The notes beneath the pieces are model-generated. The model had not been told where the DNA came from and made no database searches. It was given only the letters and a program-made list of their open reading frames with translations. A stretch of DNA of 64,000 nucleotides from Minisyncoccota bacterium. GTDB taxonomy: Bacteria; Patescibacteriota; Minisyncoccia; Phycocordibacterales; UBA2100. Below, in pieces: positions 1 through 62,809 of this stretch. The stretch covers positions 489,964 through 553,963 of the forward strand of contig OZ253947.1 of NCBI GenBank assembly GCA_965267345.1. Reading direction: 5' to 3'. Position 1 is the stretch's first letter, and the number at the start of each line of letters is the position of its first letter. The translations under genes were made by a program, and so were the position numbers.

Positions 1-173
1 CCAAAATAGAGCATTTTAGCCGCTTTCCAGCGTTTTGCAGAATCAGAAATTTCCTTTTCGGTGAGCACATCACCAAAAAAGGCACGCGCCTCTGAAAGAG
101 AGTTAAGCTCTAATACTGCACAAAAGAAATCGTCAGTATCGTTATTCATCCAACTGTGCTTTTTTGCTTTCAT
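1..173 (-). CDS. YerC/YecD-like TrpR-family protein, N-terminal part (ORF continues past window edge)
   Basis: Minus-strand translation from ATG ~173: MKAKKHSWMNNDTDDFFCAVLELNSLSEARAFFGDVLTEKEISDSAKRWKAAKML... resembles the conserved core of YerC/YecD Trp-repressor-like proteins; still open at position 1. Confidence 0.4.
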   Translation of the reverse strand, partial: MKAKKHSWMNNDTDDFFCAVLELNSLSEARAFFGDVLTEKEISDSAKRWKAAKMLYF

Positions 174-246
174 ATGCTTTAGTATATAAAATCATTTAAG
201 TAACTAAAGCATTTATCCACAGTTTTTTGTGTATTTTTGCACCTTT

Positions 247-22326: not shown

Positions 22327-23283
22327 TCATACGTTATACACCATAAGTGTGTCTTCGACCATCATTCTAAGTGAGCACCCTGGCTTCCAATTAAGATCGT
22401 TTTGGGCTTTTGTTGCGTCAGCGAGAACCATGGCGGGGTCGCCAGAGCGACGCGGGGCAATTACTGTTTTGAGTGATTTTCCTGATACTTCCTCAAGTGC
22501 AGTAACAATTTCTTTCACTGAATAGCCCCCACCGCTACCAAGGTTATATATGCCGCCTGCGTTTGTTGAAAGAGCTCGCAGGTGTGCCTCGACAATATCG
22601 GCTATGTGAATGTAGTCGCGCACGCACGTGCCATCGGTTGTCGAATAGTCGTCACCAAAAATGCTGAAAGGTAGCCCTTTCCCGAGTGCATTAGCAAGTA
22701 TCGGAAACACGTTCTGCGGGTCGGCGTCCTTGAAGTGCACGTCGGCATCGCCGACAACATTGAAGTAGCGAAATATGGTGTAGCTGGGAAGTTTTTTGGT
22801 ACGCGCAAACTCAGTGATGAGCTGCTCAGCGAGCATTTTACTGGTGCCGTAGACACTCATTGGTGCCAGCGGCGTGTCCTCTGCACAGACGCCATCGGAC
22901 GGCGCTTCGTATACTGCAGCCGTTGAAGAAAATATGACGTGCGCTGTGCCATGGGCTGCTGCTTGTACGAGTACGTTGAGCGTACCCGTGACGTTTGTTG
23001 CAAAGTATTCCTCAAGCTTTTCTTCACTTTCGGAAACCGACTTGAGTGCCGCGGCATGAATAACTGCCTGTGGCCGATGTATCGCAAACACATCACGCAG
23101 CGCAGCAATATCGAGAATATCGACTTCGACAAACGTTGCACGCTCATCGACGTAGTGCCTCTCCCCTTTTGAAAGATTGTCGAGGGCCACTACTGCATAG
23201 CCCTGTTCGCAGAGCGCTTTGACGCACGCCGAGCCAATGTAGCCAGCGCCACCCGTAACCAGTATCGTGTGCGTATCGTTCAT
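22327..23283 (-). CDS. galE: UDP-glucose 4-epimerase
   Basis: ILVTGGAGYIGS...DNLSKG motif, YGTSK catalytic motif. Confidence 0.85.
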   Translation of the reverse strand: MNDTHTILVTGGAGYIGSACVKALCEQGYAVVALDNLSKGERHYVDERATFVEVDILDIAALRDVFAIHRPQAVIHAAALKSVSESEEKLEEYFATNVTGTLNVLVQAAAHGTAHVIFSSTAAVYEAPSDGVCAEDTPLAPMSVYGTSKMLAEQLITEFARTKKLPSYTIFRYFNVVGDADVHFKDADPQNVFPILANALGKGLPFSIFGDDYSTTDGTCVRDYIHIADIVEAHLRALSTNAGGIYNLGSGGGYSVKEIVTALEEVSGKSLKTVIAPRRSGDPAMVLADATKAQNDLNWKPGCSLRMMVEDTLMVYNV

Positions 23284-24833
23284 GTTTTCTCTTCGATAGT
23301 GAATTCGTCGGCTGGGTCAGTACTGCGCCGTGCAAGGAGCATACCGGCACCTCCCGTGAGTATAAGGGCAGTGAGGGCTAAATACCACCAGAAGGAGCTG
23401 TGAGCAGTAGGTTTTGAGCTATGAGCAGTGGCGGCGAGTTGCGAGTGGGTAGTAGTTGGACGTGTGGGGTTGGTAGTTCGGAGTTGGGTGCTTGCAGTTG
23501 GGAGTGATGACGTGTCTCGATTAATCGAGGCACGAGCGGCATCGACAGCTGGTGATGGCGACTGCTGTGGCACGGGCGTGCCGATAAGTGCGTTGTGTGA
23601 GCGAGAGGTGGTCAGCTGAGGATTGGTAGGCTTCTGCATAGAGCGGGGCGGTGAGGCATTAGTACTCGTCGCCGGTGAGGTAGTTTCTGTAGTCGTTGCC
23701 TGCGGTGATACAACGGTTCCCACGAGCGCAGTGCTTCCGTCGGGAAACAGCAAGCTCGCTTCTTTGTCGACGCGAACAAATGGCAGCTCGAGCACCTCGG
23801 TTGCAAGGCGGATCGTGCTACTGGCAGCGACGGTGGTGCCGATGGGCAATTCCGCCGTGCGCACCGGTGAGCGCACGCGCCACTCGGATAGATCGAGCGG
23901 CGCATTACCGTGATTAGTGATCGCAATCCACTTCCCTGCTGCACCAATGCGCAAGGCGGCATCAAGCTGCGTAATACGTGCAGTGATGGTGTGTTCGTCG
24001 CGCAATGCGCCGTGCTCAAGCGTTGCCGTAATTACGTACTCACCCGCATAGCGATACGCATGACGCACGTCGTAACCAACTGCTTCTGTTCCGTCGCCAA
24101 AGGCCCACCGAACAACACCATTCGTGAGCGCGCGTCCTCGCGCATCGTACATTTCCGCATGCAGCGCGATGGGCGCACCAGCGACTCCCACAATCTGTTC
24201 GGGAAGTCGCAAGTGCACGTCTTGCGGCGGCTCAACACTTAGTGGCTCATAGGTGTACTGCGTGATATTTGTTACCGTTGCATCAGTTTCGTTGGTATTC
24301 GTATCGTTAGTGTCGGTCGTATCGCCAGTTTCGCCAGTGTGCTGCGCTTCGTTTGGTGTTGGCGTGCCTGCAACAAGCGCATCACCATCGCGATGCAAAC
24401 TGTTGCCGTCATTGGCTGCGCCGTCACTCTCGCTGTACGTCACCGAGTCGACAATGTCACCCGCGGCATTTTTTAGTGCAAGTGTTTCGCCAGTGTTTTT
24501 GAGGCTGAATGCGCTATCAATGAGCGTGCCACTTACTGACGGATAGTCGTCTTGGAAGGTAGTTGCATCGTCGGCAATAATCGCACAGGTTCCACTCTCA
24601 AGACTCCACAAGCCGCTGACGAGCTCAAGGCCGTGATTAGTTTCATTTTCATAAAAGACCCACCCGTCGAGTGTATGGTCGCCGTCGCTCGCGCACACTT
24701 CAATCCACTCATGATCGGCATCAGTGCTCTCGGGCGCATACATAATTTCGGTAATACGCACGTCCGCCGCAGCGATTGCCGGCGCGCACAGCAAGCACAC
24801 AATGAAAAGCGTGTACGCGCTACGCGCCATCAT
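23280..24833 (-). CDS. secreted lamin-tail-domain (LTD) protein with Thr/Pro-rich linker and C-terminal TM anchor
   Basis: Signal peptide MMARSAYTLFIVCLLCAPAIAA; LTD-like ITEIMYAP...EWIEV...GETLAL blocks; C-terminal WWYLALTALILTGGAGMLLARR helix. Confidence 0.7.
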   Translation of the reverse strand: MMARSAYTLFIVCLLCAPAIAAADVRITEIMYAPESTDADHEWIEVCASDGDHTLDGWVFYENETNHGLELVSGLWSLESGTCAIIADDATTFQDDYPSVSGTLIDSAFSLKNTGETLALKNAAGDIVDSVTYSESDGAANDGNSLHRDGDALVAGTPTPNEAQHTGETGDTTDTNDTNTNETDATVTNITQYTYEPLSVEPPQDVHLRLPEQIVGVAGAPIALHAEMYDARGRALTNGVVRWAFGDGTEAVGYDVRHAYRYAGEYVITATLEHGALRDEHTITARITQLDAALRIGAAGKWIAITNHGNAPLDLSEWRVRSPVRTAELPIGTTVAASSTIRLATEVLELPFVRVDKEASLLFPDGSTALVGTVVSPQATTTETTSPATSTNASPPRSMQKPTNPQLTTSRSHNALIGTPVPQQSPSPAVDAARASINRDTSSLPTASTQLRTTNPTRPTTTHSQLAATAHSSKPTAHSSFWWYLALTALILTGGAGMLLARRSTDPADEFTIEEKT

Positions 24834-26574
24834 TTAAGATACGTTCAAGCACCTCACGTGGTACTTCGTCACGGCGTGCATCGCCTGCGTCCTCCTTCCC
24901 ACTTTCTTGCGGCGTGTCGTCACGCTTGCCAATGCGGGGAAATAAATCTGGATAGCTCTGTTGCGGCTCAGATGGTGTCGTTGCTTCGCGCGATTCTGTC
25001 GCCTCGTCAGACGACTGTTTGCTTTTGGGTGTTGTATTGCTCCGCTCCGGTGCTTCTTCAGGTGCATCAGGAGCTGGTGTTTCGTGCTCGTCGGACTTGC
25101 TGGGCGGCTGTGGTTCCGCAGCGGCTGCAGCAGGCACCGCAGTGATAGCGCCGAGTGCTTCGCGCAGCGCGTTGCGCTGTGCGTCAGTACGCGGCTGCGC
25201 TGTTGGGTCGGCAGGTGTCTCTCCTCCGCCACCGCCTTTCTTCTTCTTTTTCTTCTTCTTTTTCTTGGTGGTCATCATCTCCTCATTCTGTGCGCGAATC
25301 GCATCTTCGATTTGCGCTCTGATGCGCGCGTACTTCTCGCGCGAACTCTCAACGATGCGATTGACGAAATTAAACGGCGGGTGCTCCACCGGCGGCAGTG
25401 TTGTTGCAGAAAATGGCTGCGAGCCGATCCCGTCAATCATGAGCGTCAGGTAAATTTGCGCAAATCCGAGATTCACTAAATCCTCCACGTAGAACGTCGG
25501 CTCAAAAATGGGCTTGAGCGTTTCCGCATCAAACGGCCCAACACGGAACGTGATGGTGGTGCCAACGTTCCCAAACACGGCCGAGCGAATGTGTTCGTCG
25601 ACTTGTTCGATGTACTGGTGCGCAATGGTGAGTGCGAGTTTGTACTTACGCGCTTCCGAGAGAATGTTGGCGAATGAGTCGTTCACCACTGACTGAAATT
25701 CGTCGACGTAAAGATAGAACGGCGGGAGCTGTGCCAGTTCAGCCTGTGTATTTTCAGCGCGACTCATCGCCGAGAGGTACATTTTTGTGGTGAGGATGCT
25801 CCCGAGCAGATCGGCATTTTGTTCACCCATGCGCCCTTTCGAGAGGTTCACAATGAAGATCTTACGCTCGTCCATGATGCGGCGTAAATCAAACGACGAG
25901 TGTGGCTGCCCGATGATGTTGCGCACAAGCGGATTCGAGACAAATTGCCCGATCTTGTTTTGAATGGCAGGTGTCGCCTCTTGTGTGTATCGGTCGGTGT
26001 AGCCGGCAAACTCTTCCTGCCAAAAGCGTTTGACGATCGGGTCGGTGACGTACTCGGTTACTTTTGCACGAAACTCTTTGTTGATGAGCATGCGGTTCAC
26101 GTCAATGAGCGTCGTGTCGGGATACTCGAGCAGCGCCAGCAGCACGTTTTGCAAAATGTATTCCATGCGGGCACTCCACGCATCAACCCAAATGCGCTGA
26201 AAGGCACTCATGAGACCCGCCACCACGAGGTGGCGCTTGTCGTACCCGACGTCCTCCATTACATTGAAGCCGACGGGAAACTCAGTATCAAATGGCGCAA
26301 AATAGACGACGTCTTCAATGCGTGACTCAGGCACAAATTCGAGCAACTTCTCAGCCGTTGAACCGTGCGGATCAATGAAGGCAATACCCTCACCGTTTTG
26401 AATATCCTGAATGGCCATGTTCTCGAGCATGGTTGATTTACCCATACCCGTTTTACCAATGATGTACATGTGGCGCATTCGATCGAGCGCCTTGATGCCA
26501 AACGGTACTTGCCCGCCGCGCGCGTCGGTGGCACCAAAATAGATAATACGCTCAGGATCGTATTCGTACGGCAT
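24820..26574 (-). CDS. TraG/TraD/VirD4-family coupling-protein-like P-loop ATPase (soluble, no N-terminal TM) with Lys/Gly-rich disordered C-terminus
   Basis: Walker A IIGKTGMGKST, ...IDPHG..., Walker B-like YLYVDEFQ; 14-nt overlap with downstream LTD gene. Confidence 0.6.
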   Translation of the reverse strand: MPYEYDPERIIYFGATDARGGQVPFGIKALDRMRHMYIIGKTGMGKSTMLENMAIQDIQNGEGIAFIDPHGSTAEKLLEFVPESRIEDVVYFAPFDTEFPVGFNVMEDVGYDKRHLVVAGLMSAFQRIWVDAWSARMEYILQNVLLALLEYPDTTLIDVNRMLINKEFRAKVTEYVTDPIVKRFWQEEFAGYTDRYTQEATPAIQNKIGQFVSNPLVRNIIGQPHSSFDLRRIMDERKIFIVNLSKGRMGEQNADLLGSILTTKMYLSAMSRAENTQAELAQLPPFYLYVDEFQSVVNDSFANILSEARKYKLALTIAHQYIEQVDEHIRSAVFGNVGTTITFRVGPFDAETLKPIFEPTFYVEDLVNLGFAQIYLTLMIDGIGSQPFSATTLPPVEHPPFNFVNRIVESSREKYARIRAQIEDAIRAQNEEMMTTKKKKKKKKKKGGGGGETPADPTAQPRTDAQRNALREALGAITAVPAAAAAEPQPPSKSDEHETPAPDAPEEAPERSNTTPKSKQSSDEATESREATTPSEPQQSYPDLFPRIGKRDDTPQESGKEDAGDARRDEVPREVLERILNDGA

Positions 26575-26590
26575 GGTATGTAGTATAGCA

Positions 26591-26820
26591 GTAGTGAGTT
26601 AGGAGTTTAGGAGTTGGAAGTGGGTAGTTGGAAGTTCGGAGTGAGGAGTTCGGAGTTGGTAGTGTGGAGTAAGTAGTGAAGAGTTGTTTCGATTAATCGA
26701 AACATGATGCAAAGTGACCAGTGGAAAGTGAGAAACTTAGTACATCGGATGTACTAAGTGTGGAATGATTTGTTTCGATTAATCGAAACAACTCACGCCA
26801 CACTACTCACTACCAACTCC
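26591..26820. repeat. composite inverted-repeat element: GGAGTT-rich imperfect ~50-bp terminal inverted repeats, each ending in TGTTTCGATTAATCGAAACA, flanking a 23-bp inner palindrome
   Basis: left arm ...GGAGTTGGTAGTGTGGAGTAAGTAGTGAAGAGTTGTTTCGATTAATCGAAACA; right arm is its approximate reverse complement; inner CTTAGTACATCGGATGTACTAAG at 26736-26758. Confidence 0.7.
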
Positions 26821-26827
26821 CGACTGT

Positions 26828-32901: not shown

Positions 32902-32941
32902 CGCTAAACCGCTATTTTGACGTCAAAATAGCGGTTTAGCG
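32902..32941. repeat. 40-bp perfect palindrome (CGCTAAACCGCTATTTTGAC|GTCAAAATAGCGGTTTAGCG)
   Basis: Read directly; overlaps 3' end of the wHTH gene and lies ~45 nt upstream of the CorC start / TATAAT-like box. Confidence 0.85.
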
Positions 32942-33763: not shown

Positions 33764-33876
33764 GTACCTCCCTTGGTTTGATGGTTTTTACGCACGTACT
33801 TCTTAACTCAGCATGCTGCATGGTGCAGGTGGTGTCAATAGAAAGAGTGGCTTTTGCATGGCGGGTACCAACTTTT

Positions 33877-33934
33877 TGTTTCGATTAATCGAAACAATTA
33901 ATTTGGCCGGGGTGTCTCGATTAATCGAGACACC
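33877..33934. repeat. two adjacent perfect palindromes of the TCGATTAATCGA family (20 bp and 24 bp)
   Basis: TGTTTCGATTAATCGAAACA (33877-33896) and GGTGTCTCGATTAATCGAGACACC (33911-33934). Confidence 0.85.
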
Positions 33935-34020
33935 TCATGCGTGTAAAAAGCTGTTGTTAAAAAAGAGCGGGCGCTGTGAGGCGTCCGCTCTTTGTTACGT
34001 ATTGTTGTGTAGTGCCGTCG

Positions 34021-34404
34021 TTAGGCGGTAGTGGTCAAAGCCATCTCGCCGTAGGCTTTGGATGCATTGTGTCGATGCCGCCGCGCTGTCCGCGGCGCAA
34101 ACACACCCGAAACGATAGCGCCGATGCCGCAAAGCACGATGACGATGCCGTAGAACAGCTCTTCCCCATAGGAATGCGCGAAGAGTGTGTCGAAGAACAG
34201 CATACCCGCCATGTAGTAGAGCGTCAGCGCGCACATAGCGAAGGCGCCGCCGCCGAAAACGGCATGAGCGAACATGAGGATGACTGGCGGTGTTTCGCCG
34301 ACCGACCTGAAACTCAGAGCAGCATTCGTCCATGCCGTGAGCAGCCACAGTACGAACCATCCTGCTGCAAACAAAGGTTCATAGGTGTTGAACATCTCGT
34401 CCAT
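34021..34404 (-). CDS. hypothetical membrane protein
   Basis: 127 aa, 3-4 TM helices. Confidence 0.45.
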   Translation of the reverse strand: MDEMFNTYEPLFAAGWFVLWLLTAWTNAALSFRSVGETPPVILMFAHAVFGGGAFAMCALTLYYMAGMLFFDTLFAHSYGEELFYGIVIVLCGIGAIVSGVFAPRTARRHRHNASKAYGEMALTTTA

Positions 34405-35639: not shown

Positions 35640-37095
35640 CAATCGGAATGAATCCACGACCACCTTCCGGTAGCCGTACCTTGTTACGACTTAGTCCTTG
35701 TCACTGAATTTACCTTAGGCCGCCACGAGGACGGACGTCGGGTACTCCCAGCTTCCCTGACTTGACGGGCGGTGAGTACAAGGCTCGAGAACGTATTCAC
35801 CGTGGTGTGCTGACCCACGATTACTAGCGATTCCAACTTCAAGTGGTCGAGTTGCAGACCACTATCCGAACTGAGGATACTTTTTTAGGATTTGCTCAGC
35901 CTTACGGCGTCGCGCCCCGTTGTAGTACCCATTGTAGCGCGTGTGCAGCCCGAGATGTCAAAGGGACATGCTGACTTGGCGTCATCCTCACCTTCCTCTC
36001 CCGTAAGGGAGCAGTCTCGCCTGACACTTGTAACAGGCAACGAGGGTTGCGTTCGTTACCCCACTTAAGGGAACAATTCAAACCACGAACTGACGACAGC
36101 CATGCATCACCTGCCCAACACCCTCGAAGGAACCTAGGTTTCCCTAGGCGTGCAGTTGGGTTTCAAACCTCGGTAAGGTTTTTCGCTTATCGACGAATTA
36201 AGCCACACGCTCCACCGCTTGTGCGAGCCCCCGTCTATTCCTTTGAGTTTTAAGCTTGCGCTCGTACTACCCAGGCGCCCCGCTTAACGCGTTAGCTTCG
36301 CCTCTGAAAGGGTCGATACTTCCAAAAGCCAGCGGGGAGTGTTTAGGGCGTGGACTACTGGGGTATCTAATCCCATTCGCTACCCACGCTTTCGTGTCTC
36401 AGCGTCAGAAATGCGCCAGTCTGCTGCCTTCGCCTTCGGTGTTCCCCATGATATCAACGGATTTCACCCCTACACCATGAGTTCCACAGACCTCTCGCAC
36501 CCTCTAGCTTAGCCGTTTCGCATGCGATTCTAGGGTTAAGCCCCAGGCTTTAACATGCGACTAACTAGGCCGCCTACACACCCTTTACGCCCAGTGAATC
36601 CGGGTAACGCTCGAGGCTCACGTATTACCGCTCCTGCTGGCACGTGATTAGGAGCCTCTTATTCATAGAGTAACGTCAATAGCTTCCTCCTCTATAAAAG
36701 GTGTTTACGCACCGAAGTGCTTCATCCACCACGCGGCATCGCTCCGTCAGACTTTCGTCCATTGCGGAAGATTCTCGACTGCAGCCTCCCGTAGGAGTTT
36801 GGACCGTGTCTAAGTTCCAATGGTGGGGGCCAGGCTCTCACCTCCCCTAAGCGTCTAAGCCTTGGTAGGCCATTACCCTACCAACTAGCTGATACTGCGC
36901 AGGCCGCTCCAGAAGCGAAAAATCTTTACCCTTGCGGGACTATCGGGTATTATCTCGGATTTCTCCGAGTTATTCCCGACTTCTGGGTACGTTCCTACGT
37001 GTTACTACCCCGTTTGCCGTGGGTCTAAACCCACTCGACTTGCATGCCTTATCCATGCCGCCAGCGTTCACCCTGAGCTAGGATCAAACTCTGAT
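35640..37095 (-). rRNA. rrs: 16S ribosomal RNA
   Basis: 5' AGAGTTTGATCCTAGCTCAGGGTGAACGCTGGCGGCATGG...; 3' ...AAGTCGTAACAAGGTACGGCTACCGGAAGGTGGTCGTGGATTCATTCC; universal 16S blocks throughout. Confidence 0.95.
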
Positions 37096-37422
37096 CTAAG
37101 ACGCACGATGTGCGCCTTTTCATGTGAACGAAACAAAAGAATACACATTCTATTTGTTCGTTTTGGATTCTCTTTCGTAAAAGAATATTTTAAGGGGCAA
37201 GTACAAAAATGTACTTGCGTGCATGATATGCCCGCTCCTAAAGTGGGCACGTCATGTGATGATGGTACTATACCGATGCTCTTTCAAGCTCGGTACGTTC
37301 ATCTGTATTCGGTTGTCAAAAAACAAACTAAAAACCGCCCTTGAGCGGTAGACGGAATTGTACGGGTTTTTTATCCCGAGTCAAGGAAAACCTGCACGTC
37401 ACGACCGTGCTATTCTTGGCGC

Positions 37423-37959
37423 ATGGACATTGCATTTATTGTCGTCGGTGCACTGGCAGTGGAGCTGCTCACCTTGCAGTTTCGGCTTCTGCATAAGCTG
37501 TGTAGTGTTGAGGTAAAAGAGAAGCTCGGCCTCCCCCGCATTCACCACAGCTACTTCGGTGCACTCTTCATTCTCGCCTCATTCACGACGCTCCCTGAAC
37601 CGCACTGGCTCTGGATCATCGGCTGGTCACTCGTACTCTCCGACATCGCGCATCACTACGTGGTCCTTCCGTTACTGAAACTAACCAAAACTGACATTGC
37701 GATGAAATACAGTCGCGCAAGTCGCGCATTTTTTCTGCGCCTGTCGTTTATCGTCACTGCAGCACTAGGGGTGATGATTGCCTTTGCGTCGATGAGCAAC
37801 ACGCTCTGGGGTGTGGTTATTGCGCTTGCCATGATTACCGTGTCGGAACGTTTGCATATCTTGCTGCCCCGTATCGGCTGTCCGCAGACTATTGCGGTGC
37901 ACTTCGACTCACGGCGTACTGGGTATCGTAGCCCTGTGCGGCGGCGACGGCGTCGGTAG
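37423..37959 (+). CDS. hypothetical membrane protein (only plus-strand ORF in this region, divergent from 16S)
   Basis: 178 aa, 4-5 TM helices, Arg-rich tail; followed by family palindrome at 37990. Confidence 0.35.
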   Translation: MDIAFIVVGALAVELLTLQFRLLHKLCSVEVKEKLGLPRIHHSYFGALFILASFTTLPEPHWLWIIGWSLVLSDIAHHYVVLPLLKLTKTDIAMKYSRASRAFFLRLSFIVTAALGVMIAFASMSNTLWGVVIALAMITVSERLHILLPRIGCPQTIAVHFDSRRTGYRSPVRRRRRR

Positions 37960-37989: not shown

Positions 37990-38011
37990 GTGTCTCGATT
38001 AATCGAGACAC
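37990..38011. repeat. 22-bp perfect palindrome GTGTCTCGATTAATCGAGACAC
   Basis: Read directly; between secF stop and the 16S upstream region. Confidence 0.85.
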
Positions 38012-40934: not shown

Positions 40935-40976
40935 GTGTGGGCAGTATACCTATGCACAGGTGCGATGTCTATGGAA

Positions 40977-41018
40977 CGAGTGCGGGCTGTTTCGAGTACT
41001 CGAAACAGCCCGCACTCG
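40977..41018. repeat. 42-bp perfect GC-rich palindrome with GTTTCGA-GTAC-TCGAAAC core
   Basis: CGAGTGCGGGCTGTTTCGAGT|ACTCGAAACAGCCCGCACTCG; between sugar-transferase stop and secD start. Confidence 0.85.
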
Positions 41019-44500: not shown

Positions 44501-44610
44501 AATACTCTGTGTTGGCGCCTACCTACTCTCCCCAAAGAATGAGTACCATCGGCGCTAGTGGGCTTGACTGCCGAGTTCGGAATGGGATCGGGTATACCCC
44601 CACCGCCAAA
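44501..44610 (-). rRNA. rrf: 5S ribosomal RNA
   Basis: ...CCCGATCCCATTCCGAACTCGGCAGTCAAGCCCACTAGCGCCGATGGTACTC...GGGGAGAGTAGGTAGGCGCC. Confidence 0.85.
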
Positions 44611-44814
44611 GCACCAACACACAGTATTCGAACGCATATGAAGCACTCTATACGAGACCCGATCCTCCTCACAATGAAGATCAGGCCTGGTCGCCGAGGG
44701 AGGGTTCGGACCTCCATCAAAGGGCCATGCCCAATGGTCTTACGTTAAACGACTCGCCGTATTCCCATACAGAATACTTCATGTAATCAATAGCACTGAA
44801 ATCGACATGCAAGG

Positions 44815-47925
<3,111 letters not shown>

Positions 47926-48203
47926 CCTGTGAGGAGTTCCACTAACCGCTTTAATTTTTATGCATGTGTGTTTCGCACGGAAAGACCGAGGTCGGCTAGA
48001 CCTCATAATCAAACGAAACACACGTCCTGCATGTCGATTTCAATGCTATTAAATTGTCAAAGATCATTCTGCGTGTTTTCTGTACATCCACGAGCGGCAC
48101 TAAAAATGACCGCTTGAGCGCGGCCCTTCGAGTGCTTTCAAAAAAAGCCCTCTACGGACGCACGCTTTTCTTGGACAAACTACTCATAAACACGTGGGCG
48201 CTA

Positions 48204-52422: not shown

Positions 52423-52772
52423 ACAGAAAACACTAATTACTGCATAAACAGCAACGTCGCCGCTGCCTGTTTCAATTCACTAAACGTCACGTCGTAGTAG
52501 TTCACGGCAAGAATGAGCACCAAGCTTGTCGAGAGAATGAAAATAAACCCAAAAACAAAGTTAAAGAATGTGGTGTTAAAAAGCGAATTCCTGTTCATAC
52601 AAACCATTATAGTAGCCACACGCCCCTACCGCCACCCACCAATACAAGGACCGACCTTGTTCATACAAGGTCGGTCCTTGTTGACTTTTGCTGTTATCTC
52701 TTGGGGTGGTTTAGTGGAGTTGGTTGGGGGTGGGTGCTTGGAGATGTTGTCGGTTGGGGGTGGGTGGTTAGA

Positions 52773-53414
52773 CTAGAGCTCGAGGATGAGGAATTCGCCT
52801 GCTTGGGCATTGTACGCAAAGCGCACACGGAATGGCAGTTGCGACCCTTTAGGGTACACAGCGATCTCGTAGATGCCGTACTCAGGGTCAACGAGCTCAA
52901 CGTCAGCAACGTCCCCTGTGTAGTACGCCTGTACCACGGGGTGTAGCGCTTCGCGTGCTGCGCGCTGCTCGAAAGCGACGCGGTATGAGGCACGTGCCGA
53001 TGGCTCAATGTACGTCAGCGCGCGCTCCGTGTCCTTTACACTCATTGCTCGTGCAAAGTAGTAAAGTGCTGATGCGGGTGAATCTGCTACCTGTCGGGGT
53101 CCTAAATCTACCTGTGGTACTTGCTGGGTGTTCTGTGCCGTACCGGCACCGGCCGCTGCAGCAGGCTGCGTGTTCGTTGTTTGGCTCTGCGCGGTTTCGG
53201 TGCGTGGTGTATCTGCACTCTCGTCGCTCTGTGGCGTTGTGGTCGCCGATTCGTCACCTGTAGTTTCTCTCTGCTCTTCTTCTACCATGCCTGTGTCAGC
53301 AGGAAGCGCAACCTTCTTATTTGCAGTATAAGCGTACAGCCCGATACCGACAGCGAGTAGAATGATCACCGCCGTGAGTGCGTACAGTGCGTCTTTGTTT
53401 TTTAATTTTTCCAT
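52773..53414 (-). CDS. hypothetical membrane-anchored protein (N-terminal TM, Thr/Gln-rich linker, C-terminal globular domain)
   Basis: start at internal ATG (MEKLKNK...), ORF track start 53513. Confidence 0.5.
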   Translation of the reverse strand: MEKLKNKDALYALTAVIILLAVGIGLYAYTANKKVALPADTGMVEEEQRETTGDESATTTPQSDESADTPRTETAQSQTTNTQPAAAAGAGTAQNTQQVPQVDLGPRQVADSPASALYYFARAMSVKDTERALTYIEPSARASYRVAFEQRAAREALHPVVQAYYTGDVADVELVDPEYGIYEIAVYPKGSQLPFRVRFAYNAQAGEFLILEL

Positions 53415-57842: not shown

Positions 57843-58664
57843 CTACAGTGCCAGTGCGTACGTTGTCCACCGCTTCTCACCCTCCTTCGTCACCACACCG
57901 TCGGCCACGAGTGCGGCCAATTCACGTTGAATTGTCTTCTCGCTCACGCCCGTCACCTCGCGCGCAATGTCCTTTACGTGCACCTGCTTCTTTTTAGAAA
58001 TAACATCGAGGATGCGCATGCGACGGTTATCGCTACGGCGACGTGTGCGCACCGATGTATTGGTTCCTTTTTTTACCGAGTCAGAATCAGTTTTTGTGTC
58101 CTTTATATTTTTTGTGTCCTTTTTAGTGTCCGTTACAGACGTGTCCTTTACATTGTTATTTTGTCCTTTAGAAATATGTCCGTGGGTATCAGTGAGTGGC
58201 GCTGCAAAATAGTCGCGCGGCAACTCAACCGGATCAGTGTGTACGCCGTCACTGGCACCGACGAGGAAGTGCGCAAAGTCTGCGTACGCATACTTCACCA
58301 CATCGGCATTCATATCAGACACCCAGCCCGCTGCATGGAGCACGTCAATGAGCGACATAATCAAACGCGTAGCTGCGACGACATCGTACACTGCGGCACC
58401 GGCTGCAAAGCGCACGCCCTTGCGCAAGCGGAGGGTGTGCGTCAGCAGTTCCTGCACTGCCGTGCGCACCGCAGCGCGCGCCGGCTCATCAGCTGCAACG
58501 CCGTTGGTAATTAAATGCGTGGCAATGGCCAGACGTTCCGCTTTTCGATACGCAATGTCGGCAGTGCGATTCGCGCCGAATGGTGCTGCACTCTGGTTTG
58601 CATCACTACTGCGCTGACGATATACGTCCAATTGATTTTCAGTGTTAAAGCTGTTCTTTTTCAT
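57843..58664 (-). CDS. transcriptional regulator with C-terminal winged HTH and Lys/Asp/Thr-rich linker
   Basis: C-terminus ...ILDVISKKKQVHVKDIAREVTGVSEKTIQRELAALVADGVVTKEG...; N-terminal domain unassigned. Confidence 0.55.
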   Translation of the reverse strand: MKKNSFNTENQLDVYRQRSSDANQSAAPFGANRTADIAYRKAERLAIATHLITNGVAADEPARAAVRTAVQELLTHTLRLRKGVRFAAGAAVYDVVAATRLIMSLIDVLHAAGWVSDMNADVVKYAYADFAHFLVGASDGVHTDPVELPRDYFAAPLTDTHGHISKGQNNNVKDTSVTDTKKDTKNIKDTKTDSDSVKKGTNTSVRTRRRSDNRRMRILDVISKKKQVHVKDIAREVTGVSEKTIQRELAALVADGVVTKEGEKRWTTYALAL

Positions 58665-58666
58665 GT

Positions 58667-58743
58667 TATGTCCGTTATATAACGGACATATGTTTACATA
58701 TTTTGTCCGTTACAAAACATGTCCGTTATGCTGTCCGTTACAC
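58667..58743. promoter_or_regulatory. operator-like array: 22-bp perfect palindrome ATGTCCGTTATATAACGGACAT abutting the regulator start codon plus three direct TGTCCGTTA repeats
   Basis: Read directly in the divergent intergenic region between the wHTH regulator and ftsK. Confidence 0.6.
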
Positions 58744-61750: not shown

Positions 61751-62809
61751 ATGGCAGCAAAAAAATCCGCAGCGAAGAAAAGTGCACCAAAAAAGTCAGC
61801 TCCCGCAAAACCAACAAAGCCGGAGAAAGACACGAGCAAGATTGAAGCCGCTGTCTCGGCGATAAAGACAAAGTTCGGCGACGAGGCAATCATGATGCTC
61901 GGCGATACCGGCAAAGTGAATGTCGACGCCATCCCTACCGGCTCCATTGGTGTGGACTGGGCACTGGGTATTGGCGGATTCCCGCGCGGCCGCGTTATCG
62001 AAATTTACGGACCGGAATCATCCGGTAAGACCACACTCTCGCTGCACGCCATTGCCGAATCACAGAAAAAAGGCGGTGTGTGTGCCTTCATCGACGCCGA
62101 GCATGCCCTCGACCCTGAGTACGCGCGCAAGATTGGCGTCAAAATTAACGACCTGCTCATTTCCCAACCGGACACGGGTGAACAGGCACTTGAAATTGTT
62201 GAGAGCCTCGTGCGCAGCGGCAACATCGACCTCATCGTCGTCGACTCAGTTGCTGCCCTCACCCCGAAAGACGAGATCGAGGGCGAAATGGGTGCCCACC
62301 ACGTCGGCAAGCAGGCACGCTTGATGAGTCAGGCGCTACGCAAACTCACGGCAATCACGGCAAAAACCAAAACGACCGTTATCTTCATCAACCAAGTGCG
62401 CATGAAAATCGGCGTTATGTTTGGCAACCCTGAAACCACACCCGGTGGTAAGGCGCTCAAATTCTACTCATCCGTGCGCCTCGATATTCGTCGCATTGCC
62501 CAAATCAAAAAAGGCACTGAAGTAATGGGTGGCCGTCACCGCGTCAAAGTGGCAAAAAACAAAATTGCTGCGCCATTCCGCACGGCAGAATTCGACCTAC
62601 TCTACAACGAAGGTATTTCACGCGAAGGCGAACTCCTCGCCCTTGGTGAGAAAATGGAGGTTATCGAAAAAGCGGGTGCCTCATACCGGTTTGATGATGT
62701 GGCACTGGGCCGCGGGTACGATGCCGCGCGCACTTTTCTGCGCGAAAACAGCAAAATTGCAACTGCCGTCCTCAAAGAGATCCGCACGAAACTGAAAGAG
62801 GAATCATAG
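61751..62809 (+). CDS. recA: recombinase RecA
   Basis: [17 protein letters not shown] Walker A, canonical RecA blocks throughout. Confidence 0.97.

What the first reader, a model, noticed from the sequence alone, without database searches (positions are those of the whole stretch)
26685..26790. Dispersed family of perfect palindromes with core TCGATTAATCGA (GTTTC.../GTGTC... flanks)
At least six copies were seen: 26685-26704 and 26771-26790 (TGTTTCGATTAATCGAAACA), 33877-33896, 33911-33934 and 37990-38011 (GTGTCTCGATTAATCGAGACAC), and an imperfect copy at 23512-23533. A relative sits at 40977-41018 (GTTTCGA-GTAC-TCGAAAC inside a 42-bp palindrome). Except for 23512, which lies inside the LTD gene, all are intergenic. 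They lack the T-tracts of intrinsic terminators. They look like operator sites for a dimeric DNA-binding protein, or a REP/MITE-like repeat family.
Basis: seen in the sequence. Interest (0 to 1): 0.6.

Follow-up and report, generated by a model that had tools for sequence, protein, structure and literature searches.

The report
Trp-repressor-type operator palindromes in CPR bacterium
A 20-base perfect palindrome repeated six times in this candidate-phyla-radiation (Parcubacteria) chromosome is most likely the binding site of a small Trp-repressor-family protein, because in a distant relative the identical sequence sits on both sides of such a gene; this gives a rare testable regulator–site pair for a poorly understood group of bacteria, but it is an ordinary kind of element.

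Summary
The core TCGATTAATCGA occurs 6 times against 0.01 expected, all between 23.5 and 38 kb, with consensus TGTYTCGATTAATCGARACA. A seventh relative at 40977-41018 has the centre GTAC. There are no degenerate copies: 7 sites have ≤2 mismatches and none has 3-5.

The window comes from a Parcubacteria (Kaiserbacteria-like) chromosome. The identical 20-mer recurs in a distant 36% GC Patescibacteria MAG. There, two copies bracket a 138-aa gene of a large CPR family related to Trp repressor/YerC (Pfam PF01371).

In 9 of 9 family lineages examined, the gene is bracketed by two ~20-bp perfect palindromes. One overlaps or abuts its likely promoter; the other lies at or just after the stop. The palindromes differ between lineages but match within each locus. 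TrpR/HisR operators are known to be 20-bp palindromes.

So the sites are most likely operators of a TrpR-family dimer (confidence about 0.55). No bracketed gene lies in the window. Only the truncated start of a different TrpR-family gene sits at its left edge.

Three copies (s1-s3) share flanking homology, one lies in-frame inside the LTD gene, and the closest syntenic relative lacks them. Spread by duplication is therefore real as well.

Verdict: new member of a known kind, moderate interest.

The parts
23512..23533 (.). s1: imperfect copy GTGTCTCGATTAATCGAGGCAC. It lies in frame inside the LTD/PKD gene (23280-24833, - strand), in the variable Thr/Pro-rich linker before the C-terminal membrane anchor.
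23400..23511 (-). G-poor CCAACT/CCGAACT-rich tract following s1 on the - strand. It codes for the linker and is homologous to the tract after s2.
   Evidence: z=5.9 against dinucleotide shuffles
26685..26704 (.). s2: perfect 20-bp palindrome TGTTTCGATTAATCGAAACA, 110 nt upstream of the ATG of the VirD4/TrwB-like ATPase gene (24820-26574, - strand).
26575..26684 (-). Non-coding G-poor tract between s2 and the ATPase start. It is homologous to the s1 tract and ends in a TATACT -10 box 8 nt before the ATG.
26735..26759 (.). Unrelated 25-bp palindrome ACTTAGTACATCGGATGTACTAAGT between s2 and s3. It belongs to a family seen three times around a Y1 transposase gene in relative L020.
26770..26791 (.). 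s3: perfect 22-bp palindrome TTGTTTCGATTAATCGAAACAA, 38 nt downstream of the DUF4015 gene stop (26828). Its centre is 86 bp from that of s2.
26792..26827 (+). Short inverted copy of the G-poor tract on the outer side of s3.
   Evidence: z=3.3
33876..33897 (.). s4: perfect 22-bp palindrome TTGTTTCGATTAATCGAAACAA, 113 nt upstream of the DUF350 gene start (33763, - strand) and about 37 nt upstream of a TTGACA hexamer.
33911..33934 (.). s5: perfect 24-bp palindrome GGTGTCTCGATTAATCGAGACACC. Its centre is 36 bp from that of s4. It lies just downstream of the intrinsic terminator (33958-33995) of the small membrane-protein gene 34021-34404.
37990..38011 (.). s6: perfect 22-bp palindrome GTGTCTCGATTAATCGAGACAC. 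It lies 31 nt after the stop of the + strand membrane-protein ORF 37423-37959 and 314 nt after the stop of secF (38325, - strand).
40977..41018 (.). s7: 42-bp perfect palindrome with TGTTTCGA-GTAC-TCGAAACA at its centre. It lies between the sugar-transferase stop (41026) and secD. It abuts the -35 of the secD promoter-like site TAGACA-17-TATACT. The RNA hairpin is -39.8 kcal/mol.
1..173 (-). 5' part (57 codons) of a TrpR/YerC-family gene cut off by the window edge. It is a candidate binder of the family type, but it is a different subfamily from the bracketed one and has no TCGATTAATCGA site upstream.

Best explanation
The palindromes are operators: double-stranded DNA sites bound by a homodimer of a small Trp-repressor-family (TrpR/YerC-like) helix-turn-helix protein typical of Parcubacteria.

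Each HTH reads one half of TGTYTCGATT|AATCGARACA. The invariant TCGA-TTAA-TCGA core has the same layout as CTAG-TTAA-CTAG in the E. coli trp operator.

Bound protein would repress or insulate transcription of the co-directional units that the sites precede or delimit: VirD4-like ATPase-LTD, DUF350, and secD-mazG-secF.

Shown: the repeat family itself. Also shown: the identical 20-mer brackets a TrpR-family gene in another CPR genome, and palindromes co-vary with the protein across 9 lineages.

Inferred: the window's genome encodes a protein of that specificity; the sites are bound; binding affects transcription.

At least three copies (s1-s3) arrived by duplication of a 60-130-nt segment that carries the site. 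The present set is therefore partly a product of repeat spread rather than site-by-site selection.
For: 1. The 12-bp core occurs 6 times against 0.01 expected. All copies are perfect dyads through the centre, and s7's centre GTAC is also self-complementary. This is expected for a symmetric dimer on duplex DNA and is not required of an RNA loop.

2. The exact 20-mer occurs 4 times in Patescibacteria MAG H52-bin007_1, with an orthologous site in a Parcubacteria MAG. Two of these copies, 483 bp apart, bracket one 138-aa gene.

3. That gene's family is TrpR-like. Homologues score above the PF01371 cut-off (44, 46.6 and 47.3 bits). JGI names two of them YerC. The best structural matches of the AF2 model are E. 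coli TrpR (probability 0.9). The family has 1216 clusters at E≤1e-10.

4. In 9/9 lineages the gene has a ~20-bp perfect palindrome within 25 nt of the ATG, overlapping or abutting candidate -10 boxes read by eye. A second lies at or within about 50 nt after the stop. The sequences are lineage-specific but concordant within a locus.

5. Closely related proteins keep TCGRTTAAYCGA and vary the outer bases. This matches the two flavours seen in the window.

6. In the literature, TrpR and HisR(YerC) operators are 20-bp palindromes with lineage-specific consensus (PMC9413887). The trp operator is TGTACTAGTTAACTAGTACA (PMC2504314).

7. A TrpR-family gene starts at window position 173.
Against: - No gene of the bracketed subfamily is in the window. 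The rest of the 644-kb genome could not be fetched.
- The truncated TrpR-like gene at the window edge has no such site upstream.
- Apart from s7, the window sites do not sit in the classic repressor position. s2 and s4 are about 110 nt from the start codons, s6 lies between convergent genes, and s1 is intragenic.
- There is no tail of degenerate sites, which is unusual for a regulon.
- s1-s3 share flanks and are absent at syntenic positions in the nearest relative, whose ATPase is 85% identical.
- The genes next to sites differ between the two genomes: RecO, secY/adk and the TF gene in one; ATPase, DUF350 and secDF in the other.
- Six copies within 15 kb is denser than in any of the other lineages' loci.
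Confidence: 0.55

Rival explanations
1. A selfish or duplicative palindromic repeat (REP-, MITE- or RPE-like) that spreads in this lineage and has no dedicated regulatory role. Any protein binding would be that of its mobilising enzyme.
For: - s1 and s2 share about 110 nt of flanking homology (z=5.9). s3 carries a shorter inverted copy, giving an inverted-repeat composite at 26575-26827.
- s1 is inserted in frame in a variable linker of a coding gene, as Rickettsia palindromic elements are (the RPE comparison is from memory).
- The syntenic relative L020 lacks all copies.
- The copies are all-or-none in sequence and clustered.
- L020 carries a Y1 (IS200/RAYT-like) transposase with its own palindrome family. 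One member of that family lies between s2 and s3.
Against: - No Pfam transposase hit among the 65 window ORFs scanned (Pfam).
- The palindromes are perfectly symmetric and lack the asymmetry or GTAG head of REPs. No target duplications were seen.
- s4-s6 and all four copies in H52-bin007_1 share nothing beyond the palindrome.
- Identity of a 20-mer between a 52% GC and a 36% GC genome is hard to explain by local repeat spread. It is easy to explain by a conserved binding protein.
- The bracketing of a stably syntenic TrpR-like gene in 9 lineages is not mobile-element behaviour.
- There are no hits in viral contigs.
Confidence: 0.2
2. The sites act at the RNA level. The transcribed hairpins would serve as factor-dependent or U-tract-less terminators, RNase III/processing sites, or 3'/5' stabilisers at operon boundaries.
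For: - All copies fold as hairpins better than shuffles, at -8 to -20 kcal/mol (z -4.4 to -5.7 for the five perfect copies, -2.0 for the imperfect s1). s7 folds at -39.8 kcal/mol.
- s3, s5, s6 and s7 lie shortly after stop codons.
- In other lineages the downstream bracket copy sits at the apex of a terminator-like hairpin with a T-tract (L028), or after the L28 gene (L024).
- Sporadic hits in unrelated genomes are terminator stems.
Against: - There are no U-tracts, and the genome has clear canonical terminators elsewhere.
- The loop is always itself palindromic and the sequence is identical between copies. Neither is needed for hairpin function.
- The upstream bracket copies overlap or abut candidate core-promoter elements rather than 3' ends.
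- s2 and s4 are weak hairpins at -8 and -12 kcal/mol.
Confidence: 0.12
3. The sites are centromere-like or chromosome-organising, a parS/NBS-type cluster bound by a ParB-like or other structural protein. This was suggested by the tight cluster and by the outer arms TGTTTC...GAAACA, which are shared with parS TGTTTCACGTGAAACA.
For: - Six to seven near-perfect copies lie in 17.5 kb and none in the other 46 kb. An all-or-none sequence pattern is typical of parS sets (from memory).
- The arms resemble parS.
- rRNA genes, ftsK and recA are nearby.
Against: - The site is 20 bp rather than 16, with 4 extra central bases.
- No canonical parS is found even at ≤3 mismatches.
- No Pfam ParB or ParA hit among the 65 window ORFs scanned (Pfam).
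- There is no GC-skew turn in the window.
- The demonstrated gene association of the 20-mer is with a TrpR-like gene, not parB.
Confidence: 0.05

Closest known systems
E. coli TrpR and its trp/aroH/trpR operators (TGTACTAGTTAACTAGTACA; PDB 1tro)
   Same: - It is a 20-bp perfect dyad with TGT...ACA ends.
- Two 4-bp palindromic submotifs are separated by a central TTAA (CTAG-TTAA-CTAG against TCGA-TTAA-TCGA).
- The operator overlaps the regulator's own promoter, giving autoregulation. This is seen in the CPR bracketed genes.
- The protein family is PF01371.
   Different: - The recognised bases differ.
- The CPR proteins are about 135 aa and carry a conserved Trp-rich C-terminal extension (GMPEMGKNRWKWL) that TrpR lacks.
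- A second operator copy sits at the stop codon.
- CPR bacteria are generally reported to lack most amino-acid biosynthesis (background knowledge; not tested here), so the ligand and regulon must differ.
- In the window most sites are not at promoters.
HisR (B. subtilis YerC) regulons of Firmicutes (PMC9413887)
   Same: - It is a TrpR-family repressor with 20-bp palindromic operators whose consensus is lineage-specific.
- It was identified by comparative genomics.
- The truncated gene at window 1-173 resembles this canonical YerC type.
   Different: - The HisR consensus is cacTTTAnnnnnnTAAAgtg, and its sites lie upstream of his genes.
- No his genes are involved here, the motif is different, and the copies are perfect and clustered.
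REP elements with RAYT (Y1) transposases, and in-frame palindromic elements such as Rickettsia RPEs
   Same: - They are short dispersed palindromes, mostly extragenic.
- One copy is in frame in a coding gene.
- Some copies share flanks.
- They are lineage-specific in presence.
   Different: - The dyad is perfect and loop-less, with no orientation-defining asymmetry.
- There is no RAYT in the window.
- The same 20-mer occurs in a very distant genome, where it is tied to a DNA-binding protein gene.

Membership tests
Operator of a TrpR-family (TrpR/HisR/YerC) repressor | 20-bp inverted repeat with exact dyad symmetry | tested here: met
   Five perfect copies and one imperfect copy; consensus TGTYTCGATTAATCGARACA. 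The 20-bp palindromic structure of family operators is taken from PMC9413887.
Operator of a TrpR-family (TrpR/HisR/YerC) repressor | A TrpR-family protein is encoded in the same genome | tested here: inconclusive
   The truncated ORF at window 3-173(-) hits PF01371 at E=5.9e-5 and 23.5 bits, below the 27-bit cut-off because only 57 aa are present. It belongs to a different subfamily from the bracketed genes. The rest of the genome was not retrievable.
Operator of a TrpR-family (TrpR/HisR/YerC) repressor | The site is associated with the regulator's own gene (autoregulation) and co-varies with the protein | tested here: met
   This was met in other genomes, not in the window. The identical 20-mer brackets the TrpR-like gene in H52-bin007_1. 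Nine of nine lineages have lineage-specific bracketing palindromes. The window's own TrpR-like gene has no such site.
Operator of a TrpR-family (TrpR/HisR/YerC) repressor | Sites overlap promoters of regulated genes | tested here: inconclusive
   s7 abuts a -35. s2 and s4 are about 110 nt upstream of start codons. s6 lies between convergent genes. s1 is intragenic.
Operator of a TrpR-family (TrpR/HisR/YerC) repressor | Specific binding by the protein | not testable with these tools
   This needs EMSA, DAP-seq or ChIP.
REP/RAYT repeats | Imperfect palindrome with a conserved asymmetric head (GTAG-like) that defines orientation | tested here: not met
   The copies are perfect loop-less dyads with no asymmetric head. 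The REP definition is from memory.
REP/RAYT repeats | A cognate Y1 (RAYT) transposase gene flanked by the repeats | tested here: inconclusive
   No PF01797 hit among the 65 window ORFs scanned; several short ORFs were not scanned. The whole genome was not available. Relative L020 has a Y1_Tnp, but it is associated with a different palindrome.
MITE | Terminal inverted repeats plus target-site duplication around a 50-500-bp unit present in many copies | tested here: not met
   Only the composite at 26575-26827 has inverted arms. No target-site duplication was recognised. s4-s6 have no shared flanks.
Intrinsic (Rho-independent) terminator | GC-rich hairpin followed by a U-tract | tested here: not met
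   The stems are AT-rich at the core and no T-tract follows. Only s4 is weakly flagged on the + strand. Canonical terminators are present elsewhere.
parS / ParB centromere | 16-bp TGTTNCACGTGAAACA sites near parB/oriC | tested here: not met
   No match at ≤3 mismatches. The sites are 20 bp with a different core. No Pfam ParB hit among the scanned ORFs of the window (Pfam calls). No GC-skew inflection.

The most novel reading that the evidence does not exclude
The CPR-specific TrpR-like family may not be an ordinary metabolite-sensing repressor. It may instead be a boundary or insulator system, or possibly a DNA self-recognition system.

Its gene is always bracketed by two copies of its own perfect operator. 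It lies next to DNA-uptake or DNA-processing genes in five of the nine lineages (Lactamase_B in L004, L024 and probably L026; RecJ, RNase H, ComEC and Lactamase_B in L028 and L029).

In some genomes, such as this one, operator copies have multiplied to mark the ends of transcription units: ATPase-LTD flanked by s2/s3 and s1, and secD-secF flanked by s7 and s6. The protein would then act as a roadblock terminator or looping element, with the same sequence doubling as an RNA hairpin.
Probability: 0.1. Interest if true: 0.7.

Novelty: new member of a known kind. Interest (0 to 1): 0.45.

Why it matters
Almost nothing is known experimentally about transcription control in candidate-phyla-radiation bacteria, which have very few regulators.

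This work yields a concrete, cheaply testable pairing. One partner is a large family of ~135-aa TrpR-like proteins (1216 clusters at 50% identity with E≤1e-10). The other is a set of lineage-specific 20-bp palindromes found on both sides of each gene examined (9 of 9 lineages). Nine protein-operator pairs are already in hand, which makes a natural data set for a recognition code.

For this window it explains an eye-catching repeat family without invoking anything exotic. It also flags which units may be co-controlled: the T4SS-like ATPase-LTD pair, DUF350, and secDF.

Tried and rejected
- **Canonical parS.** No match at ≤3 mismatches. Only the outer arms resemble it.
- **LexA/SOS box.** There is no copy upstream of recA at 61751. 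The Patescibacteria LexA paper was not held in the library.
- **Known RNA families.** Rfam found nothing at any site, at gathering threshold or at E≤1.
- **Phage or mobile origin.** The 20-mer has 0 hits in viral contigs.
- **Conserved operator in synteny.** The closest retrievable relatives (L020/L021 with 85% ATPase identity; L022/L023 with 83%) have no TCGATTAATCGA core in the same gene neighbourhood.
- **Bracketed TrpR-like gene in the window.** tblastn and six-frame HMM searches were negative, apart from the truncated, different-subfamily ORF at 3-173.
- **Direct sequence hits for the H52-bin007_1 protein.** Pfam, NCBIfam and PDB gave none. Family assignment came only through homologues and a profile.
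- **Fetching the window's own genome.** This failed: exact-protein look-ups found no record, even though an identical protein exists on a 644,490-bp contig.
- **Sporadic exact 20-mer hits.** Hits in Pedobacter, Carnobacteriaceae, Anaerolineae and others are single copies, several being the tips of ordinary terminator stems. I judged them to be chance among abundant palindromes.
- **Literature search for the motif.** It returned only an unrelated primer.

Full report
**Observation**

The repeat family is real. The 12-mer TCGATTAATCGA occurs six times: at 23517, 26689, 26775, 33881, 33917 and 37995. Dinucleotide-preserving shuffles give 0.01.

Reading the flanks gives two flavours.
- TTGTTTCGATTAATCGAAACAA: s2 at 26685-26704, s3 at 26770-26791, s4 at 33876-33897.
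- GTGTCTCGATTAATCGAGACAC: s5 at 33911-33934, s6 at 37990-38011, and the imperfect s1 at 23512-23533.

Both fit TGTYTCGATTAATCGARACA. The 42-bp perfect palindrome at 40977-41018 (s7) has the same arms around a GTAC centre.

Against the 20-mer consensus the window holds 7 sites with ≤2 mismatches, none with 3-5, and only background from 6 upwards. All copies lie within 17.5 kb of the 64-kb window.

**Context**

The window is chromosomal DNA of a candidate-phyla-radiation bacterium.
- The 16S rRNA (35642-37099) and the 23S-5S genes (44510-47927) are unlinked.
- The genes are typical of the group: secA, Mur ligases, secDF, ftsW, ftsK, recA, and many glycosyltransferases.
- The VirD4/TrwB-like ATPase at 24820-26574 has its best named relatives in Candidatus Kaiserbacteria and Parcubacteria.
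- Nearly all genes from 13.6 to 51 kb are on the - strand.

Seen on the - strand:
- s3 lies 38 nt after the DUF4015 stop.
- s2 lies 110 nt before the ATPase ATG.
- s5 and s4 lie between an intrinsic terminator (33958-33995) and the DUF350 gene.
- s6 lies between the 3' ends of a + strand membrane-protein ORF and secF.
- s7 abuts the -35 of a promoter-like site for secD.
- s1 is in frame inside the LTD/PKD gene. It sits in a Thr/Pro-rich linker that is variable among homologues, before a C-terminal membrane anchor.

**Related sequences**

One scan of 185,579 species genomes for the 20-mer gave 8 loci.
- Four sites were in a single 36% GC Patescibacteria MAG, H52-bin007_1.
- One orthologous site was in a Parcubacteria MAG.
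- The rest were single copies in unrelated bacteria. Several of these are tips of ordinary terminator stems, which I take as chance among abundant palindromes.

The metagenome scan returned the same groundwater organism again, plus sporadic hairpins. Viral contigs gave nothing.

In H52-bin007_1, two perfect copies 483 bp apart bracket one small gene. The other copies lie after recO and between secY and adk. These copies share nothing beyond the palindrome.

**The bracketed gene**

Its 138-aa product had no direct Pfam, NCBIfam or PDB sequence hit. Family assignment came through its homologues:
- Homologues are found, and JGI calls two of them YerC.
- Many homologues score above the gathering threshold of Pfam PF01371, Trp_repressor: P0160 at 44 bits, P0164 at 46.6, P0168 at 47.3, P0158 at 32.6.
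- An AlphaFold model has pLDDT 62.7 overall and 80-87 over the core. Its best PDB matches are E. coli Trp repressor (1trr, 1tro; probability 0.9). The E-values are weak, as expected for a monomer model of an intertwined dimer.
- A profile search of 1.84 billion representatives finds 1216 clusters at E≤1e-10. The family is therefore large.
- It has a conserved Trp-rich C-terminal extension that TrpR lacks.

**Co-variation test**

I fetched DNA for eight further family members, at 29-79% identity to the first. In every locus the gene is bracketed by two ~20-bp perfect palindromes. One lies within 25 nt of the ATG, overlapping or abutting candidate -10 boxes that I read by eye in the upstream sequences. 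The other lies at, or within about 50 nt after, the stop codon.

The palindromes differ between lineages but agree within each locus:

| Locus | Palindrome |
|---|---|
| L004 | TGTTTCGATTAATCGAAACA |
| L024, L026 | TATTTCGGTTAACCGAAATA |
| L027 | TGCTTCGGTTAACCGAAGCA |
| L025 | TAGTACAGTTAACTGTACTA |
| L028 | TCATGTGATTAATCACATGA and TCGTACGATTAATCGTACGA |
| L029 | TAGTGCGATGCATCGCACTA |
| L030 | ACATCGATATATCGATGT |
| L031 | TCGATGATTCGAATCATCGA |

Gene neighbourhoods are conserved: L28 and Lactamase_B in one group, RecJ-RNase H-ComEC in another. These are therefore stable chromosomal genes, not cassettes. In several loci the downstream copy also precedes a candidate -10 box of the next gene.

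This is the pattern expected of a repressor and its co-evolving operator.

It also matches published knowledge. TrpR and HisR(YerC) operators are 20-bp palindromes with lineage-specific consensus (PMC9413887). The trp operator in PDB 1tro is TGTACTAGTTAACTAGTACA (PMC2504314). That has the same layout as the present site: CTAG-TTAA-CTAG against TCGA-TTAA-TCGA.

**Inference for the window**

The window's repeat is base-for-base the operator type of the H52-bin007_1 lineage. Close relatives of that protein keep TCGRTTAAYCGA while varying the outer bases, as the window's two flavours do. The most economical reading is that this genome encodes a TrpR-family protein of the same specificity, and that the palindromes are its binding sites.

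The perfect symmetry through the centre in all copies argues for recognition of duplex DNA by a symmetric dimer rather than for selection on an RNA hairpin. This includes the GTAC centre of s7.

**What is not shown**

- No gene of the bracketed subfamily is in the window.
- Only the first 57 codons of a different, canonical YerC-like TrpR-family gene lie at the left edge (window 173→1, - strand; PF01371 E=5.9e-5). It has no TCGATTAATCGA site upstream. It has its own inverted repeat, GCTTTAGT-N19-ACTAAAGC.
- The remainder of the 644-kb genome could not be retrieved.
- Most window sites are not in a classic repressor position.
- There are no degenerate sites.

**Evidence for spread by duplication**

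- s1 and s2 share about 110 nt of G-poor, CCAACT/CCGAACT-rich flank. The score is 78 against 42.8±5.9 for dinucleotide shuffles (z=5.9).
- s3 has a shorter inverted copy (z=3.3).
- Together these form an inverted-repeat composite at 26575-26827.
- A different palindrome lies between s2 and s3, at 26735-26759. It belongs to a family seen three times in and after a Y1 transposase gene of the nearest retrievable relative, L020.
- L020 is syntenic with the window from CNNM to the epimerase, and its ATPase is 85% identical. It has no TCGATTAATCGA at all.

So the sites near the ATPase-LTD pair are recent, lineage-specific acquisitions made by copying a segment that carries the palindrome. This does not contradict the operator reading, since binding sites can be spread by repeats. 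It does keep a purely selfish-repeat explanation alive. s4-s6 share no flanks.

**Other rivals**

*RNA-level function.* The hairpins are real but modest, at -8 to -20 kcal/mol; s7 is -39.8. They lack U-tracts, whereas the genome has clear A/T-flanked terminators elsewhere. Rfam finds nothing. A dual role is possible: DNA operator plus transcribed hairpin at unit ends, as in L028, where the downstream copy tops a T-tract terminator.

*parS-like centromere.* This was suggested by the arms and the clustering. It fails on length, on the absence of canonical parS, and on the lack of ParB among the scanned ORFs of the window.

**Verdict**

The repeat-element alternative is partly right for three copies.

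This is a new member of a known kind: a TrpR-family operator in a group where no regulator-site pair has, to my knowledge, been described. My two literature searches found none. Confidence in the main explanation is 0.55. Interest is moderate.

Noticed in passing
window 1-210: The start of a TrpR/YerC-family gene lies on the - strand (ATG at 173) and is cut by the window edge. It has its own upstream inverted repeat, GCTTTAGT-N19-ACTAAAGC (176-210), and a TATACT box 7 nt before the ATG. A perfect DnaA-box-like TGTGGATAA lies just upstream.
   Followed up: partly
window 57968-58741: A 24-bp perfect palindrome, TATGTCCGTTATATAACGGACATA, plus three direct TGTCCGTTAY copies lie between the DeoR/MarR-like HTH gene (57843-58664, -) and ftsK. 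Four near-copies lie inside the HTH gene (17 matches against 6.4 expected). This looks like an iteron or operator array for that regulator.
   Followed up: partly
window 26735-26759; L020 8498-9030: The palindrome ACTTAGTACATCGGATGTACTAAGT lies between s2 and s3. The relative L020 has three ACTTAGTAC-N5-GTACTAAGT copies. Two of them are in frame inside a 226-aa Y1 (IS200/RAYT-like) transposase ORF and one lies just after it. This may be a REP/RAYT-like system in this clade.
   Followed up: partly
window 44849-47927 (esp. 46593-46669): The 23S rRNA gene is unlinked from the 16S and is about 150 nt longer than the Rfam model. A tRNA-like element is called inside it (Rfam tRNA 53.8 bits; ARAGORN reports an abnormal anticodon loop).
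   Followed up: no
window 32902-32941 and 52644-52681: Two further long perfect palindromes of unique sequence. One is 40 bp, CGCTAAACCGCTATTTTGAC|GTCAAAATAGCGGTTTAGCG, upstream of the CNNM gene. The other has 17-nt arms, ACAAGGACCGACCTTGT, and is followed by a C-poor GGGGTGG-rich tract at 52686-52778.
   Followed up: no
window 26575-26590 and 40943-40971; L022 9985-10000: TATACT boxes lie 7-8 nt before the ATG of the ATPase and secD genes, with no Shine-Dalgarno sequence. The arrangement is conserved in a relative. This suggests leaderless mRNAs, although other genes (DUF350, 34021-34404) do have GGAGG-type sites.
   Followed up: partly
window 24820-26574: The VirD4/TrwB-like ATPase has a run of 11 Lys followed by 5 Gly and a long disordered acidic/Pro-rich tail. 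It overlaps the start of the LTD/PKD gene. Relatives keep the ATPase-LTD pair (L020, L022).
   Followed up: no
L017 3340-3359: In an unrelated 59% GC metagenome contig, the asymmetric variant TGTTTCGATTAATCGAGACA lies about 50 nt upstream of rplL (L7/L12). It is probably chance.
   Followed up: no
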